Origin: a virus
Taxonomy: Duplodnaviria > Heunggongvirae > Uroviricota > Caudoviricetes
IMG/VR virus record: IMGVR_UViG_2690315742_000005
Coordinates: 1-26,039 of that record
Strand: one strand, 5' to 3'
Length of the DNA stretch: 26,039 nucleotides
Each line of letters begins with the position of its first letter. Position 1 is the stretch's first letter. The notes beneath the pieces are model-generated. The model saw only the letters and a list, made by a program, of their open reading frames with translations. It did no database searches and was not told where the DNA came from. The translations under genes and the position numbers were made by a program. Shown in pieces: positions 14,083 through 18,407 of this stretch.

Positions 14083-14289
14083 ATGCTGAACCTCGATTGT
14101 GTTCCTATCTCAACTTATTGCAAAGAAACTGGCGAAACTCCTGAAGCAATAAACAAACGTGTACAGCGCGGTGTTTGGCGTGAAGGTGTTCAGGTTTTAA
14201 AGGTTGAAGGCGTTAAGGAGAGGTGGATTGATCTTAGTGAGGTTGCAAAATGGGCCAGACAAAACTGCTCAAACTACCGCGCGGCGTAA
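14083..14289 (+). CDS. excisionase (Xis-like)
   Basis: ORF 14071..14289; likely start ATG 14083 (GGAGAA RBS upstream). Small basic protein with winged-helix-like KRVQRGVWREGV segment, immediately upstream of and overlapping the integrase gene. Confidence 0.6.
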   Translation: MLNLDCVPISTYCKETGETPEAINKRVQRGVWREGVQVLKVEGVKERWIDLSEVAKWARQNCSNYRAA

Positions 14290-15416
14290 CAATCAGGAAA
14301 CACCGCCAGGGAGAAACGATCAATATAACTTTCACCTACAAAGGAGTTAGATGTCGTGAGCCGCTTTCCAATCTAGAAGTAACACCAAAGAACATTAAAT
14401 ACGCCGAGCGTACACTCGGCGAAATCCATAATAAGATCGAAAGGGGAACATTCATTTATGCAGAATATTTTCCCCGTTCTGCTCGTTTGAAAATTTTTGG
14501 TAATGCTGCTGCAGGCAAAACGGTAAAGATGTACCTGGACGAATATCTTGAAATCTGCGAAACAAGAAAACTTTCACCCTCTACGATTGGTGGCTATAAA
14601 AAATGCCGTAGTGCGTTAGCCTCACTTCACATTTGCCCTGCAAGTGAATTAACACCAGCAACCCTGAAAGCGTGGATTCAAAGCCAGAAAACAACCTTAA
14701 AAACCATTCGCAACCAGTTATCTTTCCTGCGGTCAGCACTTGATGAAGCCGTGACCGATGGGGTACTTCAAATTAACCCCGTATCGTTAGTAACAGCTTC
14801 GCGCTACCAAAGTGATAAGTCAGAAGCAGAAAGCAGCTATGTGGTTGATCCGCTATCACCAGCAGAAGTTGATGCATTATTAGCAGCAGCCGGAAACAAA
14901 CAATGGGAAAATCTGTTCCGGTTCGCCATACATACAGGCCTGCGTAGTTCTGAATTATGTGCCCTTCGATGGCGTGATATCGACTTTGTTGGAAAAACTG
15001 CCCATGTCCAGAGCGCAAGTGTTGTCGGTGTTATCAAAGGGACAAAGACAAAAGCAGGTACTCGTAAAGTTGAACTGACAGAAGAGGCAATGTTGGCGCT
15101 GATAAATCAGAAGCCATTTACATTCATGAAGGATGCTACTGTCTTTGAAGACCCAAAGACCAATAAGCCTTGGGCAAGTGCTGATGCAATAAGGAAAAAA
15201 GCATGGGTGCCAACATTACGAAAAGCAGGTATTCGTTACAGAAACCCATATCAAACCAGGCATACATTCGCCACCCGCCATATCAGCCGGGGAGCGAACC
15301 TGTTTTGGCTTGCAGCTCAAATGGGGCATAAAGGGCCTGAGATGCTTTTCAGGCACTATGGTCGATATCTCAAAGAATACGACGGAAAAAGCTCCATCAA
15401 ATACATTATACAATGA
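14250..15416 (+). CDS. tyrosine integrase (lambda Int family)
   Basis: 388-aa ORF; N-terminal arm-binding-like domain; C-terminal catalytic region with conserved R (TGLRSSELCALRW), HTFATRHISRGANL and GHKGPEMLFRHYGRYL (H-x-x-R ... Y). Confidence 0.9.
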   Translation: MGQTKLLKLPRGVTIRKHRQGETINITFTYKGVRCREPLSNLEVTPKNIKYAERTLGEIHNKIERGTFIYAEYFPRSARLKIFGNAAAGKTVKMYLDEYLEICETRKLSPSTIGGYKKCRSALASLHICPASELTPATLKAWIQSQKTTLKTIRNQLSFLRSALDEAVTDGVLQINPVSLVTASRYQSDKSEAESSYVVDPLSPAEVDALLAAAGNKQWENLFRFAIHTGLRSSELCALRWRDIDFVGKTAHVQSASVVGVIKGTKTKAGTRKVELTEEAMLALINQKPFTFMKDATVFEDPKTNKPWASADAIRKKAWVPTLRKAGIRYRNPYQTRHTFATRHISRGANLFWLAAQMGHKGPEMLFRHYGRYLKEYDGKSSIKYIIQ

Positions 15417-15428
15417 TTATGGCGGCAT

Positions 15429-16058
15429 TTATTGCCGCCCACATAATTCATTATGCCATTTATCCAAGTAACAATCCAATTGTTTTAATGTTTTCAATAC
15501 ATATACAGGCTTACGTGGCGGATGATTTTTTTGAAAAGAATCATATAAATGCATTATGAAATCGACACAAGCACTAGATACATTCTGAGCGCGAAAAACC
15601 CTATATGACTTATTAAAACAATATGATTTCTCACATTCCATAGTAGCTTCATCTATAATATTAGAAAAATACGAAATTGTTATTTTTATCCCCCTCTCAT
15701 CGAGAAGATTAATGTATTTATTTATTTGTATGGCTTTTCCATGAATTGCCGTTAAATATATTTTCGCCGACTGAGTATGCAATCCATTAGAGTTCTTAAA
15801 ATTTTTTTTCTTAAATGGATTAGAATCTGGTGGTGTTGACTTATTAACCCAGTAATCCAGAGACAAATCTGATATTTCGTTTAAAATTTTAGCAATCGCA
15901 TCTATAATCGATTTAGATTCAGAGCGAGTAGCAATCTTCAGTGAATTATTGTAAGTAACAAACCATCCAATAAACACTAAGATAATACTCACAACACTAA
16001 ACATCCATGCGTAAGTGGACACCCCTGCAAGGGTGTCCTTAATATCAACGGTGTTCAA
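15429..16058 (-). CDS. hypothetical membrane protein (third gene of AT-rich cargo operon); start uncertain
   Basis: ORF 15429..16142; predicted TM helix (MFSVVSIILVFIGWFVTY) then Lys/Asn-rich soluble domain; very low GC. Candidate starts: TTG at 16058 (GGAG 5 nt upstream, 1 nt after the upstream stop), ATG at 16004, or ATG at 16142 (would overlap the upstream gene by 83 nt). The 3' end overlaps a hairpin (15423..15441) shared with the convergent int gene. Confidence 0.5.
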   Translation of the reverse strand: MNTVDIKDTLAGVSTYAWMFSVVSIILVFIGWFVTYNNSLKIATRSESKSIIDAIAKILNEISDLSLDYWVNKSTPPDSNPFKKKNFKNSNGLHTQSAKIYLTAIHGKAIQINKYINLLDERGIKITISYFSNIIDEATMECEKSYCFNKSYRVFRAQNVSSACVDFIMHLYDSFQKNHPPRKPVYVLKTLKQLDCYLDKWHNELCGRQ

Positions 16059-16059
16059 A

Positions 16060-16401
16060 TCAACTCCTTTGGAAAGGCTTCCTTTCTGGATTAGCCATTT
16101 CAATATATCTAAAAATTTGATCTTTATAGAACGGCAAATCACTTTTTATAATTAGTTTTGCCTTAATGTCAGCCTTAGGTACACCTTCCTTCCTAACAAG
16201 CCCTCCAAAGGCCTCCTCTAGAAACGAAGAACCAATCCCATGATTTATACCCGTAAAATCTACGACAACCTCACGCTCACCAGATTTTAATGCAGGAACC
16301 AGAAAGTCCTTACGAAAACGCTCAGCACTGTTCGGGCTGTCAGACTTGAACCTTCCAAATGGCATCTTTGAGAAATCCCTTGCTATGACGATGTTAACCA
16401 T
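16060..16401 (-). CDS. STAS-like (anti-sigma-factor-antagonist-like) small protein
   Basis: 113-aa ORF; EVVVDFTGINHGIGSSFLEEAFGGL matches the STAS/SpoIIAA-like pattern (hydrophobic strand, D-F/L-S/T-G-V, then SSGL/SSFL helix); start overlaps the upstream gene stop by 8 nt. Confidence 0.5.
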   Translation of the reverse strand: MVNIVIARDFSKMPFGRFKSDSPNSAERFRKDFLVPALKSGEREVVVDFTGINHGIGSSFLEEAFGGLVRKEGVPKADIKAKLIIKSDLPFYKDQIFRYIEMANPERKPFQRS

Positions 16402-17317
16402 CTTCTCCTCTCCTCGGAACTAATGACCATTCAATCAATGTTCCCGGCATGTACTCAGGTATCCACTCGCATTTGGGAACCTCATTTCTTGAATTATAGC
16501 TGTACTTAACATTCCCTGTGAACACCAAAAGTGATTCTGAATTCGCACAGCCAGACCCTATAGGTCTCTTTATATCCTCAGAACCATTACCACGTCCAGC
16601 GTTAACATATCTGGACTGTCCTCCTGTCAGGGCTGTTGACACAGATGTCACGTCGTCATACCCAGTAAACAACGGAGAGGCTGAAGTAAATGATTTATGT
16701 ATGCCAAGCCCAAGATCATAAATAATAAAGACAACCTTGTCTGTGTCAGGGTTGTACCAACAACTCTGCCACCATCGTTTCCCTTGCATATGCTCTATAG
16801 CACCAGCAAAGTCTGGATGTTCATATGCATGATATGAAACATTCAGCATTGCCTCACTAAGGGCTGAGGAGACCAAAAGATATTGCTCAAATGTGAGAAT
16901 TGCTTTTGAATCAATAAATTCCATCGTTTTAGCCCAATGTTCATACGGTTCCACAGCAGACTGAAAGTACCTGCGTTCCTTAGTAAGAACATCTAATTTA
17001 TCAACTGTATTTGCCATTAGAGCAATCGATAACCCCGTCCCAACAATATATCGATGCCCATACGGATTATTTTCTTTTTTCGGCCAAATGAATCGAAGAC
17101 TACTTGTGCCGAATGCCATAAAATAAGCCCTACTGATGATAGCAAACAACCTTACGCTAGCTGCAGCACCTGCATATTCTACTGTCGAAAAGTCTATAAC
17201 CACTTGTCCAGATGCTCTCGCAAGGGTGTTATCAACTGAGTTCAAAAACTTAGCTGTAACACGGCGATCAGAATCATTATAAAGGCACAATCTTTTTGGG
17301 GAAATCAACAGTTCCAT
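16394..17317 (-). CDS. GHKL/HATPase_c-type ATPase or Ser-kinase-like protein with possible N-terminal STAS-like region
   Basis: 307-aa ORF with GAGGTG RBS 6 nt upstream. Candidate Bergerat-fold motifs: N-box-like LSEAMLNVSYHAYEH, G1-like FIIYDLGLGIHK (D-x-G-x-G), G2-like NAGRGNGSE. N-terminal QVVIDFSTVEYAGAAASVRLF resembles a STAS-like strand-helix. Low GC. Confidence 0.5.
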   Translation of the reverse strand: MELLISPKRLCLYNDSDRRVTAKFLNSVDNTLARASGQVVIDFSTVEYAGAAASVRLFAIISRAYFMAFGTSSLRFIWPKKENNPYGHRYIVGTGLSIALMANTVDKLDVLTKERRYFQSAVEPYEHWAKTMEFIDSKAILTFEQYLLVSSALSEAMLNVSYHAYEHPDFAGAIEHMQGKRWWQSCWYNPDTDKVVFIIYDLGLGIHKSFTSASPLFTGYDDVTSVSTALTGGQSRYVNAGRGNGSEDIKRPIGSGCANSESLLVFTGNVKYSYNSRNEVPKCEWIPEYMPGTLIEWSLVPRRGEDG

Positions 17318-17458
17318 GGCGACACCTCAGCCAAATCTGTCTAGTCAAAAATGAGCAAAATAAATTACTATAAAATAATGACGAAGTGCACGTTTTTGAT
17401 ACGCAAAGATTGCAGGAAGAAATTAAACTTTATTTTTCATACACATAAATTCAATCAT

Positions 17459-17488
17459 ACGCGGGTTCAACTCCCGCCAGCTCCACCA
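17459..17488 (+). other. attachment-site core: 30-bp copy of the 3' end of tmRNA (ssrA), ending CCA
   Basis: ACGCGGGTTCAACTCCCGCCAGCTCCACCA matches the 3' terminus of E. coli tmRNA as I recall it (...GGACGCGGGUUCAACUCCCGCCAGCUCCACCA); upstream sequence is AT-rich and not tmRNA-like, so this is a partial copy as generated by site-specific integration. Confidence 0.6.
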
Positions 17489-17498
17489 AATAAATCAA

Positions 17499-17531
17499 GG
17501 GGTTACGTGAAAGCGTAGCCCCTTTTTCTTT
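17499..17531 (+). terminator. rho-independent terminator candidate immediately after the tmRNA 3'-end copy
   Basis: Hairpin GGGGTTACG-TGAAA-GCGTAGCCCC (one G-U pair) followed by TTTTTCTTT. Confidence 0.45.
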
Positions 17532-17611
17532 GGTAGTGGCGGCAAAATGGCGACAGACTTTTGCGTCCATCTTGCCTGTCGCCATCTTGAAATCATGCAA
17601 AGAGGTTTCAC

Positions 17612-18094
17612 ATGGAAGAACTTCACTTTGTTTACATCAATGCAAATGGTCGTATCGCTGTTCACTCTATACAGAGCATCAGTTATAGCGAAAATCATAT
17701 ACAGGGCATTTGTAAGAACACCGATCGAATAAAAACCTTCCGAAAAGACCGCATTCTTAAACAGTACGATTCACCAGAACAAGCCATTCAGGAATGCGCG
17801 TCATTCCTCCCCGAAAGCTACTCACATCTCACTAAGCAGTCTGGTCCGAAAAAAAATACATTCGATGTGTGTTTCACCGGATTTAAGAAAGCAGATAAAG
17901 AAAGATTGGTTGATAAGGCGAATGAACAAGGATTAACGGTAAGAACCTCTATAACCCAAAGCCTTCAGATGCTCTGTTGCGGTTACAATGCAGGCCCATC
18001 AAAAGTATCGGCAGCCAGGATGAAAGGCACAATCATCATAGATGAGCCTGGCTTTATACATTTTCTTGAAACGGGTGAGATTCCAGATGAATAA
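17612..18094 (+). CDS. BRCT-domain protein (cargo gene between att core and ogr)
   Basis: 160-aa ORF with AAGAGG RBS; C-terminal 80 aa (FDVCFTGFKKADKERLVDKANEQGLTVRTSITQSLQMLCCGYNAGPSKVSAARMKGTIIIDEPGFIHFL) follows the BRCT pattern seen in NAD-ligase C-termini (F-TG, G-V..S.t....l..G.naGsK..kA...g..ii.E..F); N-terminal 75 aa unassigned; AT-rich. Confidence 0.5.
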   Translation: MEELHFVYINANGRIAVHSIQSISYSENHIQGICKNTDRIKTFRKDRILKQYDSPEQAIQECASFLPESYSHLTKQSGPKKNTFDVCFTGFKKADKERLVDKANEQGLTVRTSITQSLQMLCCGYNAGPSKVSAARMKGTIIIDEPGFIHFLETGEIPDE

Positions 18095-18120
18095 AAACCT
18101 GCCGTAGCAGGTTCTCTTTC

Positions 18121-18339
18121 TCAAAAATTCATATGCCCCTGACCACCTGGCAATGGATGTGGAGGAGCAGTAGCAATCAGTGCGGGTGTCACAATAAACC
18201 GGACCACTGTTTCATGAGTAACAAAAGTGCTCCCGCAGTTAATATTTTGGCACTGGCAGTAACGCTCTTTGGTGCTTTCAGTTACTTGAAAACTGCTCCT
18301 TGTGTGTGCCGCATGACCACACTTTGGACAATTCATCAT
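18121..18339 (-). CDS. ogr: Ogr/Delta-type zinc-finger late transcription activator
   Basis: ORF 18121..18384; from the internal Met (MMNCPKCGHAAHTRSS...TKERYCQCQNINCGSTF...PHPLPGGQ) it is 72 aa and matches P2 Ogr (CPLCQHAAH...TKERYHQCQNVNCSATF...PHPLPSGQ) including the four zinc-ligand Cys. Confidence 0.85.
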   Translation of the reverse strand: MMNCPKCGHAAHTRSSFQVTESTKERYCQCQNINCGSTFVTHETVVRFIVTPALIATAPPHPLPGGQGHMNF

Positions 18340-18407
18340 ATCCAGATCCCTACCTTTGCTATCAGAATCATTGTAATGATACACAAAATATCAATATTGA
18401 GAACACT

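What the first reader, a model, noticed from the sequence alone, without database searches (positions are those of the whole stretch)
17544..18094. BRCT-domain cargo gene with an upstream 13-bp inverted repeat, between att core and ogr
The 160-aa product (17612..18094) has a C-terminal region fitting the BRCT fold pattern and an unassigned N-terminal domain, and is AT-rich. BRCT modules bind phosphoproteins or DNA ends and are uncommon as stand-alone phage accessory proteins. Upstream at 17544..17588 is a near-perfect 13-bp inverted repeat (AAAATGGCGACAG ... CTGTCGCCATCTT, 19-bp spacer) that could be an operator. The P2-like backbone has no gene expected here.
Basis: partly seen in the sequence, partly recalled or inferred. 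Interest (0 to 1): 0.55.

Follow-up and report, generated by a model that had tools for sequence, protein, structure and literature searches.

The report
Prophage WYL–BRCT gene beside attP
A real but uncharacterised accessory gene of a P2-like prophage encodes a small two-domain protein with no enzyme domain (a WYL ligand-sensing barrel plus a BRCT domain), and the "operator" upstream of it is made of the integrase's arm-binding repeats in the phage attachment site.

Summary
ORF 17612-18094 is a conserved 160-aa gene with 41% GC, against 54-56% in the tail genes. It lies between the ssrA-type att core and ogr of a 186/Fels-2-type P2-like prophage. The 14-nt inverted repeat (13/14 complementary, 19-nt spacer) is present.

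The gene is cargo. Fels-2 and SEN8 have nothing at this site, and a Klebsiella relative has a different small ORF. The cargo travels with the lysogeny module: in many P2-like phages it sits directly after the immunity repressor gene (cI→gene→int).

The operator reading is not supported. The left arm is one of two 186-type Int arm-binding repeats. These repeats occur on both arms of attP and are invariant even in phages without the gene. The right arm is a third, inverted copy found only in the E. coli lineage.

Function is untested. The best guess is a lysogen-expressed protein that binds ssDNA next to a 5'-phosphate, used for exclusion or for sensing DNA damage. Interest is moderate.

The parts
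17460..17488 (+). 3' end of ssrA (tmRNA), CGCGGGTTCAACTCCCGCCAGCTCCACCA. This is the att core shared by the two tandem prophages. Sequence to its left belongs to another, lambdoid-type prophage.
   Evidence: RefSeq annotates ssrA over the matching stretch in E. coli genomes. Identity with the relatives starts at 17459/17460. No complete tmRNA gene is found in the window.
17497..17524 (+). ssrA-type intrinsic terminator hairpin supplied by the phage (12-bp stem followed by a T run).
   Evidence: Terminator scan. Conserved with compensatory changes in relatives. The dominant hairpin in the RNA fold.
17537..17555 (.). Two direct 8-bp repeats 11 bp apart, TGGCGGCA (17537-17544) and TGGCGACA (17548-17555). 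These are the 186-type Int arm-binding sites of the P' arm of attP. The second repeat forms the left arm of the reported inverted repeat.
   Evidence: Invariant in all 7 and 9 aligned ssrA-integrating P2-like phages, with or without the gene. The same pair lies about 110-125 bp upstream of the core in the free phages Cartapus, MLG42 and SEN8. The reverse complement matches the published consensus tgccGCCActt (PMC3448106).
17576..17589 (.). Right arm of the inverted repeat. It contains a third, inverted copy of the arm-site motif (TGGCGACA on the minus strand, 17577-17584).
   Evidence: Present only in the E. coli lineage (window, Cartapus; one extra mismatch in 500465-1). Absent in Yersinia MLG42 and in the Erwinia, Klebsiella, Tatumella and Citrobacter pasteurii loci. 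Fels-2 and SEN8 carry a direct third copy instead.
17601..17605 (+). Shine-Dalgarno sequence AGAGG, 6 nt upstream of the ATG.
   Evidence: Read from the sequence. An AAAG-G block is conserved before the ATG in relatives.
17612..18094 (+). WYL-BRCT gene, 160 aa plus stop codon.
   Evidence: ORF list. 112 homologues with E<=1e-3 in the word-indexed search. 2,417 cluster representatives at E<=1e-3. dN/dS 0.16 against Cartapus. PHROG 2561, E 2.4e-76.
17612..17773 (+). WYL domain (aa 1-54): five-stranded Sm-like beta-barrel with the conserved motif K-T-F-R-K-D-R-I (aa 41-48).
17855..18079 (+). BRCT domain (aa 82-156) of the LigA/RFC1 type, with invariant T89, G90, F91 and K131.
18096..18113 (.). 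GC-rich hairpin between the convergent WYL-BRCT and ogr genes; probably a shared terminator.
   Evidence: Terminator scans in the window and in MLG42, where it scores on both strands.
18121..18339 (-). ogr (late-gene activator), 72 aa as annotated in relatives. The mechanical ORF runs on to a GTG at 18384.
   Evidence: Pfam Ogr_Delta E 1.5e-20. Coordinates mapped from Cartapus and 500465-1.

Best explanation
SHOWN. The ORF is a genuine, selectively maintained accessory gene of a 186/Fels-2-type P2-like (Peduoviridae) prophage integrated at ssrA. Its 160-aa product has no catalytic domain. It consists of an N-terminal WYL domain, a small Sm-like barrel that binds ssDNA in PafBC, DriD and CapW, and a C-terminal LigA/RFC1-type BRCT domain. 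The canonical BRCT phosphate-pocket residues (T89-G90...K131) are invariant across the family.

The gene belongs to the lysogeny module. In many P2-like phages it lies directly downstream of, and co-directional with, the immunity repressor gene (cI -> gene -> int). In this enterobacterial lineage it sits on the far side of attP (cI -> int -> attP -> gene, convergent with ogr). After integration it therefore ends up next to ssrA at the prophage edge.

The upstream inverted repeat is not a dedicated operator. It is built from 186-type Int arm-binding repeats of the P' arm of attP: two conserved direct copies plus a lineage-specific third, inverted copy.

INFERRED. The protein is made in the lysogen and works by binding, not by catalysis. 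The WYL barrel would recognise single-stranded nucleic acid, and the BRCT pocket a 5'-phosphate (or possibly a phospho-protein). The likely target is a ss/ds DNA junction, gap, resected end or cohesive end. The most likely biological role is exclusion of superinfecting phages or sensing of DNA damage or replication intermediates on behalf of the prophage. Int bound at the arm sites could incidentally affect the gene's expression.
For: Folds:

Conservation:
- Y8, T42, T89, G90, F91, L99, L121, G124 and K131 are invariant, and F43, R44, K93 and K96 are at least 90% conserved, in 39 homologues down to 31% identity.
- K131 aligns with the lysine of the RFC1 BRCT GQSK motif.
- dN/dS is 0.16.

The WYL+BRCT architecture was already listed by Makarova et al. 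2014 (PMC4012209).

Lysogeny-module linkage:
- cI -> gene -> int, with gaps of 2-35 nt, in the two Xenorhabdus-type loci; no plus-strand terminator or promoter lies between the genes in the one locus scanned, L009.
- The gene follows the repressor gene in Mannheimia PHL101 (by 4 nt), Vibrio PV94 and Burkholderia phages and in Serratia.
- CI-type, S24-type or HTH_3 repressor genes lie directly upstream in at least 12 further genome loci.

Cargo status:
- The site is empty in Fels-2 and SEN8 and holds another ORF in a Klebsiella phage.
- The gene is present in 176 of 5,426 complete E. coli genomes.
- GC is 41%, against 54-56% for the tail genes.

Inverted repeat as Int arm sites: and the published 186-type consensus.
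Against: - No experiment on this family was found in the searchable literature, so every functional step is inference.
- For this particular sequence both Pfam matches are sub-threshold (BRCT 18.6 bits against 21.3; no WYL hit).
- The two arginines flanking the WYL strand that contact ssDNA in CapW (the RWHVR motif) are not conserved here (the strand reads H-I-Q-G-I-C). The ligand may therefore not be ssDNA.
- Inter-domain geometry is uncertain (pTM 0.51).
- No sigma-70 consensus promoter was found between the ssrA terminator and the start codon in either att-ogr lineage. Expression in the lysogen is therefore unproven, and in this window the gene is not even downstream of an intact ssrA.
- No effector or partner gene is consistently adjacent.
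- PADLOC matches cover only the BRCT part of the candidate PDC-S48.
Confidence: 0.6

Rival explanations
1. One reading: a stand-alone BRCT cargo gene whose expression is controlled by a dedicated repressor or activator binding the 13-bp inverted repeat as an operator.
For: The repeat exists. It lies between the terminator and the Shine-Dalgarno sequence, where an operator could sit. It is the only repeat of its class in the window.
Against: The left arm is invariant in phages that lack the gene (Fels-2, SEN8, Klebsiella ST15 phage). It belongs to a direct-repeat pair duplicated on the other att arm, and it matches the 186-type Int arm-site consensus. The right arm is absent in 5 of 8 other loci that carry the gene at this site. 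No promoter was detected for it to control. Chance expectation is 0.35 per window.
Confidence: 0.1
2. The protein is an accessory factor of site-specific recombination. It would help Int assemble or would bias integration against excision at attP/attL, which would explain why it always sits next to int, attP or cI.
For: The gene is adjacent to int and/or attP in the window lineage and in the Xenorhabdus, Serratia and Vibrio phages. BRCT and WYL are both nucleic-acid-binding or adaptor modules. In this lineage the Int arm sites lie within 60 bp of the gene.
Against: Fels-2, SEN8, 186 and P2 use the same Int/arm-site system without the gene. In the Mannheimia and Burkholderia phages the gene follows the repressor gene with no int nearby. 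Homologues also occur next to Mrr, MrcB-HNH, AbiGi and methylase genes outside P2-like phages. Apl/Cox already serves as the directionality factor in this family.
Confidence: 0.08
3. It is an anti-defence or host-takeover protein acting during lytic growth. For example, a decoy that soaks up the ssDNA signal read by host WYL regulators (CapW, BrxR), or a LigA-BRCT mimic that competes with host ligase or exonuclease at nicks.
For: The WYL fold matches the ssDNA-sensing regulators of defence operons. The BRCT is closest to the LigA and DEDDh-exonuclease BRCTs. The protein is small and has no effector, as many anti-defence proteins are.
Against: Its position in the repressor operon of many phages points to expression in the lysogen and not in the lytic programme. 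No direct evidence exists either way.
Confidence: 0.15
4. The database labels are right: it is a DNA ligase, a ligase subunit or an exonuclease (PHROG 2561 'DNA ligase'; 'putative exonuclease' in phage Cartapus).
For: PHROG 2561 carries that name. There are weak NCBIfam hits to LigA and to a DEDDh exonuclease.
Against: The hits cover only the C-terminal 70-105 residues (the BRCT). Scores are 17.6 against a cut-off of 444 for LigA, and 24.9 against 389 for the exonuclease. The protein has 160 residues, all accounted for by a WYL barrel, a short helical linker and one BRCT. There is no nucleotidyl-transferase, OB, zinc-finger, HhH or DEDD domain.
Confidence: 0.01

Closest known systems
wHTH-WYL-WCX regulators that sense ssDNA (CapW, BrxR, DriD, PafBC)
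   Different: It has no winged-HTH DNA-binding domain and no WCX dimerisation domain, so it cannot act as a classical transcription factor. The RWHVR arginines that contact ssDNA in CapW are not conserved. The output module is a BRCT domain instead.
BRCT domains of bacterial NAD-dependent ligase LigA and of eukaryotic RFC1 (p140), which bind DNA and 5'-phosphate
   Same: These are the best sequence matches for residues 82-156. The fold is the same. The T-G...K phosphate-pocket positions are conserved and invariant in the family. That these RFC1 residues bind the 5'-phosphate is from my own recollection of the RFC1 BRCT literature and was not checked here.
   Different: Here the BRCT is not attached to a ligase, clamp loader or exonuclease. 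It is attached to a WYL barrel in a 160-aa protein.
186-type Int arm-binding sites of P2-like attP (Nilsson et al. 2011, PMC3448106)
   Same: The upstream repeats match the published consensus tgccGCCActt. They occur as two direct repeats on each side of the core, as described for P2 and 186.
   Different: Fels-2 and SEN8 have an extra direct copy instead.
Lysogeny-operon morons of temperate phages (for example lambda rexAB co-transcribed with cI; own knowledge) and the P2/P4 defence hotspots (Rousset et al. 2022, PMC9122126)
   Same: It is a low-GC, variably present gene placed in or beside the repressor-integrase unit of a prophage. That is the typical location for exclusion and defence cargo.
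   Different: No anti-phage activity has been shown. The terms ogr, ssrA, attachment site and BRCT do not occur in the main text of Rousset et al.. There is no recognisable effector domain.

Membership tests
BRCT domain (Pfam PF00533) | beta-alpha-beta-beta-alpha-beta-alpha fold of about 80-90 residues | tested here: met
BRCT domain (Pfam PF00533) | Sequence profile match above Pfam's gathering score | tested here: inconclusive
   The window protein scores 18.6 bits against a cut-off of 21.3 (E 0.0022). 34 of 39 family members match at E<=0.1, best 2.1e-6.
BRCT domain (Pfam PF00533) | Phosphate-binding pocket: (S/T)-G after beta1 and Lys in alpha2 | tested here: met
   T89, G90 and K131 are invariant in 39 homologues. 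K131 aligns with the K of GQSK in the RFC1 BRCT, and T89 and K131 align with the equivalent Rad4 residues. Actual phosphate binding was not tested.
WYL domain (Pfam PF13280) | Five-stranded Sm/SH3-like barrel that superimposes on solved WYL domains | tested here: met
WYL domain (Pfam PF13280) | Sequence profile match | tested here: inconclusive
   No Pfam WYL hit for the window protein. 2 of 39 homologues hit at E 0.003. PADLOC WYL gives E 0.04 for the window protein and 9.4e-5 for homologue P0117. A profile search against PDB sequences found nothing.
WYL domain (Pfam PF13280) | Conserved basic ligand-contact residues (Arg of the F-R-x-D-R-I strand; arginines flanking the W-Y-L strand) | tested here: inconclusive
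   R44 is at least 90% conserved in the motif T-F-R-K-D-R-I. The positions equivalent to the CapW RWHVR arginines read H-I-Q-G-I-C. The equivalence is by sequence pattern only and not by structural superposition.
wHTH-WYL-WCX transcription regulators (CapW/BrxR/DriD/PafBC) | N-terminal winged helix-turn-helix DNA-binding domain | tested here: not met
   The WYL barrel starts at residue 3. There are no HTH hits in Pfam.
wHTH-WYL-WCX transcription regulators (CapW/BrxR/DriD/PafBC) | C-terminal WCX extension domain | tested here: not met
   After the barrel come two short helices and a BRCT domain.
NAD-dependent DNA ligase LigA (label of PHROG 2561 and of several phage records) | Adenylation (nucleotidyl-transferase), OB-fold, Zn-finger and HhH domains | tested here: not met
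   TIGR00575 scores 17.6 bits against a cut-off of 444, and only profile positions 548-650 of 652 are matched. The 160 residues are fully accounted for by WYL, linker and BRCT.
DEDDh exonuclease with C-terminal BRCT (NCBIfam NF004719; label in phage Cartapus) | DnaQ-like DEDDh exonuclease domain | tested here: not met
   24.9 bits against a cut-off of 389. Only profile positions 229-307 of 331 (the BRCT tail) are matched.
186-type Int arm-binding sites of attP | Match to the consensus tgccGCCActt | tested here: met
   The reverse complement of 17534-17544 is TGCCGCCACTA, which is 10 of 11. The second and third copies read TGTCGCCAT.
186-type Int arm-binding sites of attP | [quoted passage not shown] | tested here: met
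   Cartapus, MLG42 and SEN8 have pairs on the P arm (3873/3884; 2873/2884 in SEN8) and on the P' arm (4079/4090; 3079/3090 in SEN8), each 11 bp apart.
186-type Int arm-binding sites of attP | Bound by the N-terminal domain of Int | not testable with these tools
   Needs footprinting or EMSA.
Known anti-phage defence systems (PADLOC-DB v2) | Full-length match to a system component | tested here: not met
   Only the BRCT tail of candidate PDC-S48 is matched (profile positions 334-406 of 411, E 4e-7). The same holds for the longer homologues.

The most novel reading that the evidence does not exclude
The WYL-BRCT protein is an effector-less superinfection-exclusion factor that caps phage DNA ends. 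The WYL barrel would hold the single-stranded cohesive overhang, and the BRCT pocket would hold its 5'-phosphate. In a lysogen this would stop incoming cos-type genomes (P2, 186 or lambda-like) from circularising or being ligated. Membrane-anchored and duplicated versions of the module (P0119, P0155, P0181) would do the same at the entry site. A corollary is that, in this lineage, integration moves the gene from the cI-int transcript of the circular phage to a position behind the highly transcribed ssrA. Its expression would then depend on the integration state.
Probability: 0.1. Interest if true: 0.75.

Novelty: new variant of a known kind. Interest (0 to 1): 0.42.

Why it matters
WYL domains are emerging as the ssDNA sensors that switch bacterial immune and DNA-damage operons on and off. 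So far they have been studied mainly as part of transcription factors.

This family couples a minimal WYL barrel to a BRCT phosphate-binding module, with no DNA-binding HTH and no enzyme. P2-like phages of gamma- and beta-proteobacteria keep it in their lysogeny module; in the loci examined it most often directly follows the repressor gene. Its function, if worked out, would show what a prophage gains from sensing ssDNA or DNA ends. It could also reveal a purely binding-based way of excluding rival phages or reading host DNA damage.

On the practical side:
- The 'DNA ligase' and 'exonuclease' labels on this family are wrong and should be corrected.
- The palindrome next to the gene should be annotated as Int arm sites of attP.
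- The att-ogr junction is a third cargo slot of ssrA-integrating P2-like phages.

Tried and rejected
- Direct sequence and profile searches of the PDB with the full protein and with the N-domain alignment gave only weak BRCT hits and chance hits such as streptokinase and TubZ. The N-domain could be classified only by fold.
- I looked for informative domain fusions among longer homologues using Pfam, PADLOC and PHROGs. The extra regions are TM segments, a second WYL-BRCT copy, or phage families of unknown function (phrog_36782, phrog_31886). No effector was identified.
- The promoter search upstream of the gene found no sigma-70 consensus site in the window or in the Yersinia phage lineage. By eye, the non-E. 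coli lineage has only a weak TTCATT-N17-TGTAAT candidate. Expression signals remain unresolved.
- RNA folding of the leader shows the inverted repeat could form a hairpin (z = -4.6 for the 137-nt stretch, dominated by the ssrA terminator). It has no T tail and is not conserved, so I do not read it as an attenuator.
- Literature searches for WYL+BRCT, BRCT+prophage/P2-like, BRCT+anti-phage and BRCT+phage defence+ssDNA found no study of this family. The only mention is the architecture in Makarova et al. 2014. The one BRCT search hit in the integron-defence preprint was a false match.
- The afdb50 fold library was unavailable. The viral library gave only LigA-type BRCT and small WYL matches.
- dS against other genera is saturated, so dN/dS could be computed only against Cartapus.
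- Raw enrichment of TGGCGRCA in the window (15 sites) is not meaningful by itself, because the word resembles common E. coli codon strings. Only the clustered, positionally conserved copies at att are used as evidence.

Full report
SETTING. The window holds two prophages in tandem at the tmRNA gene ssrA. The left part, up to about 17459, is a lambdoid-type element. It ends with an integrase (14250-15416; Arm-DNA-bind_2 plus Phage_integrase) and a three-gene, low-GC cargo on the minus strand. From 17460 the sequence is the 3' end of ssrA (CGCGGGTTCAACTCCCGCCAGCTCCACCA) followed by an ssrA-type terminator hairpin at 17497-17524. Next come the ORF in question, then ogr, and then tail genes D, U and T of a P2-like phage on the minus strand. 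ARAGORN finds no complete tmRNA gene, so this core is a duplicated att core. In 170 complete E. coli genomes the same ORF-ogr block lies directly behind an intact ssrA. No record in that collection spans this window's junction with the left prophage; the maximum coverage was 87%.

CHECK OF THE OBSERVATION. All stated features are present. The ORF runs 17612-18094 and encodes 160 aa. A good Shine-Dalgarno sequence (AGAGG, 17601-17605) precedes it. Its GC is 41.2%, against 54-56% in the adjacent tail genes. The inverted repeat is 14 nt per arm, 13/14 complementary, with a 19-nt spacer (17543-17556 and 17576-17589). It is the only such repeat in the window, but simulated sequences yield 0.35 per window. 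Statistics alone therefore do not make it a functional site.

The database names 'DNA ligase' (PHROG 2561 and the phage 500465-1 and PHL101 records) and 'putative exonuclease' (Cartapus) reflect only the BRCT tail. The domain content refutes them.

HOW WIDESPREAD IT IS, AND WHERE IT SITS. The family is large: 2,417 cluster representatives at E<=1e-3 and 192 at E<=1e-30. The gene is under purifying selection (dN/dS 0.16 against Cartapus; dS is saturated against other genera). It is in 176 of 5,426 complete E. coli genomes.

In free phage genomes of this lineage (Cartapus and Yersinia MLG42) the gene order is cI -> int -> (RES gene in Cartapus) -> attP -> WYL-BRCT, convergent with ogr. Fels-2 and SEN8 use the same core and the same arm repeats but have no gene here. 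A Klebsiella relative has a 73-aa lipoprotein-like ORF instead.

The broader picture adds one point. In more distant P2-like phages the gene lies inside the lysogenic operon, immediately after the immunity repressor gene:
- Xenorhabdus and a related metagenomic phage have cI -> gene -> int with 2-35-nt gaps and no intervening signals.
- Mannheimia PHL101 has the gene 4 nt after cI.
- Vibrio PV94, Burkholderia and Serratia show the same linkage.
- At least 12 more genome loci have a 186-type CI, a LexA-like S24 CI or a small HTH_3 repressor directly upstream.

A minority of homologues lie in other mobile or defence-like neighbourhoods, next to Mrr, MrcB-HNH, AbiGi or methylase genes. Some are fused to membrane anchors, to a second copy of the module, or to phage domains of unknown function. 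The recurrent theme is co-expression with the prophage repressor.

THE INVERTED REPEAT. Aligning the region after the core from seven phages shows a block, GTGGCGGCAAA(A/T)TGGCG(A/G)CAG, that contains the left arm. This block is invariant in all of them, including three phages without the gene. The same holds for six further loci from other genera. The block consists of two 8-bp direct repeats (TGGCGGCA and TGGCGACA) 11 bp apart.

In the free phages Cartapus, MLG42 and SEN8 an equivalent pair lies on the other side of the core, just after int. Nilsson et al. [quoted passage not shown] They give tgccGCCActt as the 186-type arm-site consensus, and the reverse complement of 17534-17544 matches it 10 of 11. 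The left arm is therefore the second Int arm-binding site of the P' arm.

The right arm is a third copy of the same motif in inverted orientation. It is present in the E. coli lineage only. Five other genera with the gene lack it. Two loci have an inverted copy of the other repeat variant (read by eye from the alignment). Fels-2 and SEN8 have a direct third copy. The simplest reading is a variable array of Int arm sites and not an operator dedicated to the gene. Int bound there could still affect transcription entering the gene, but that is untested.

EXPRESSION. I found no sigma-70 consensus promoter between the ssrA terminator and the start codon, either here or in the Yersinia lineage. Transcription could come from a non-consensus promoter. 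It could also come from read-through of the ssrA terminator in ordinary lysogens, or from the cI-int transcript in the circular phage. In this window the first 5' neighbour is another prophage's minus-strand cargo, so ssrA read-through is not available. This question is open.

MECHANISM. Shown: the fold, the invariant pocket residues, the lack of any catalytic or HTH domain, cargo status, linkage to the repressor operon, and the identity of the repeats. Inferred: the protein is made in the lysogen and acts by binding. WYL domains in PafBC, DriD and CapW bind ssDNA produced by damage or infection. LigA/RFC1-type BRCTs bind DNA with a 5'-phosphate (own knowledge). Together they suggest recognition of ssDNA next to a 5'-phosphate, that is, gaps, resected ends or cohesive ends. 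A role in excluding superinfecting phages, or in reading DNA damage or replication stress for the prophage, fits the operon position.

Caveats: the CapW RWHVR arginines are not conserved here. Domain orientation is not predicted with confidence (pTM 0.51). No partner or effector is evident. I put about 0.9 on the molecular identity and on the reinterpretation of the repeat. I put about 0.3-0.4 on the DNA-junction-binding mechanism, and less on any specific biological role.

COMPARISON AND NOVELTY. The protein is not a member of the wHTH-WYL-WCX regulators, because the HTH and WCX domains are absent. It is not a ligase or an exonuclease. It is not a component of any PADLOC system; only the BRCT tail of candidate PDC-S48 matches. 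It is a WYL sensor barrel coupled to a different output module, so I rate it a new variant of a known kind. The sequence itself is already in databases as 'hypothetical' or 'BRCT domain-containing protein'. Rousset et al. 2022 never use the terms ogr, ssrA, attachment site or BRCT, so the att-ogr slot does not appear to be discussed there. Interest is moderate: a tractable, widespread, uncharacterised lysogeny-module protein, but nothing that contradicts current understanding.

Noticed in passing
window 14250-17317: The left, lambdoid-type prophage ends with its integrase and a low-GC (38.5%) three-gene cargo on the minus strand. The genes are a 237-aa protein (weak PADLOC '2TM effector' hit, E 0.006), a 113-aa DUF4325/STAS-like protein (E 8e-15) and a 307-aa protein with a weak HATPase_c_2 hit. 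No PADLOC system matches. The same block is in 10 complete E. coli genomes. It looks like an uncharacterised partner-switching-type candidate defence cargo.
   Followed up: partly
window 17440-17488 (junction): Two prophages share one ssrA-derived att core in tandem. No complete E. coli genome in the collection spans this exact junction (maximum 87% coverage), although each half is common on its own.
   Followed up: partly
L005 1243-1464 (Klebsiella phage ST15-OXA48phi14.1): The same att-ogr slot holds a different 73-aa ORF that begins with a lipoprotein-like signal sequence. This shows the slot exchanges cargo.
   Followed up: no
L002 2661-3866 (phage Cartapus): A 401-aa RES-domain (NAD+-binding toxin-like) gene sits between int and attP. 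This is a second cargo slot on the other side of the attachment site.
   Followed up: no
proteins P0155, P0119, P0181, P0150, P0163, P0169, P0177: The WYL-BRCT module also occurs duplicated, fused to N- or C-terminal transmembrane segments, or fused to a C-terminal domain of about 230 aa and unknown function (phrog_36782). None of the partner domains could be assigned.
   Followed up: partly
window 18121-18384: The mechanical ORF for ogr is 87 aa starting at GTG 18384. Relatives annotate 72 aa, which corresponds to an ATG at 18339.
   Followed up: yes
NZ_CP020835.1 (hit H1): In E. coli CFSAN051542 the ssrA / WYL-BRCT / ogr region is interrupted by an IS1B element; the match comes in two pieces.
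   Followed up: no
window 18096-18113: A GC-rich hairpin between the convergent WYL-BRCT and ogr genes scores as a terminator. In the Yersinia phage it scores on both strands, so it probably serves both genes.
   Followed up: partly
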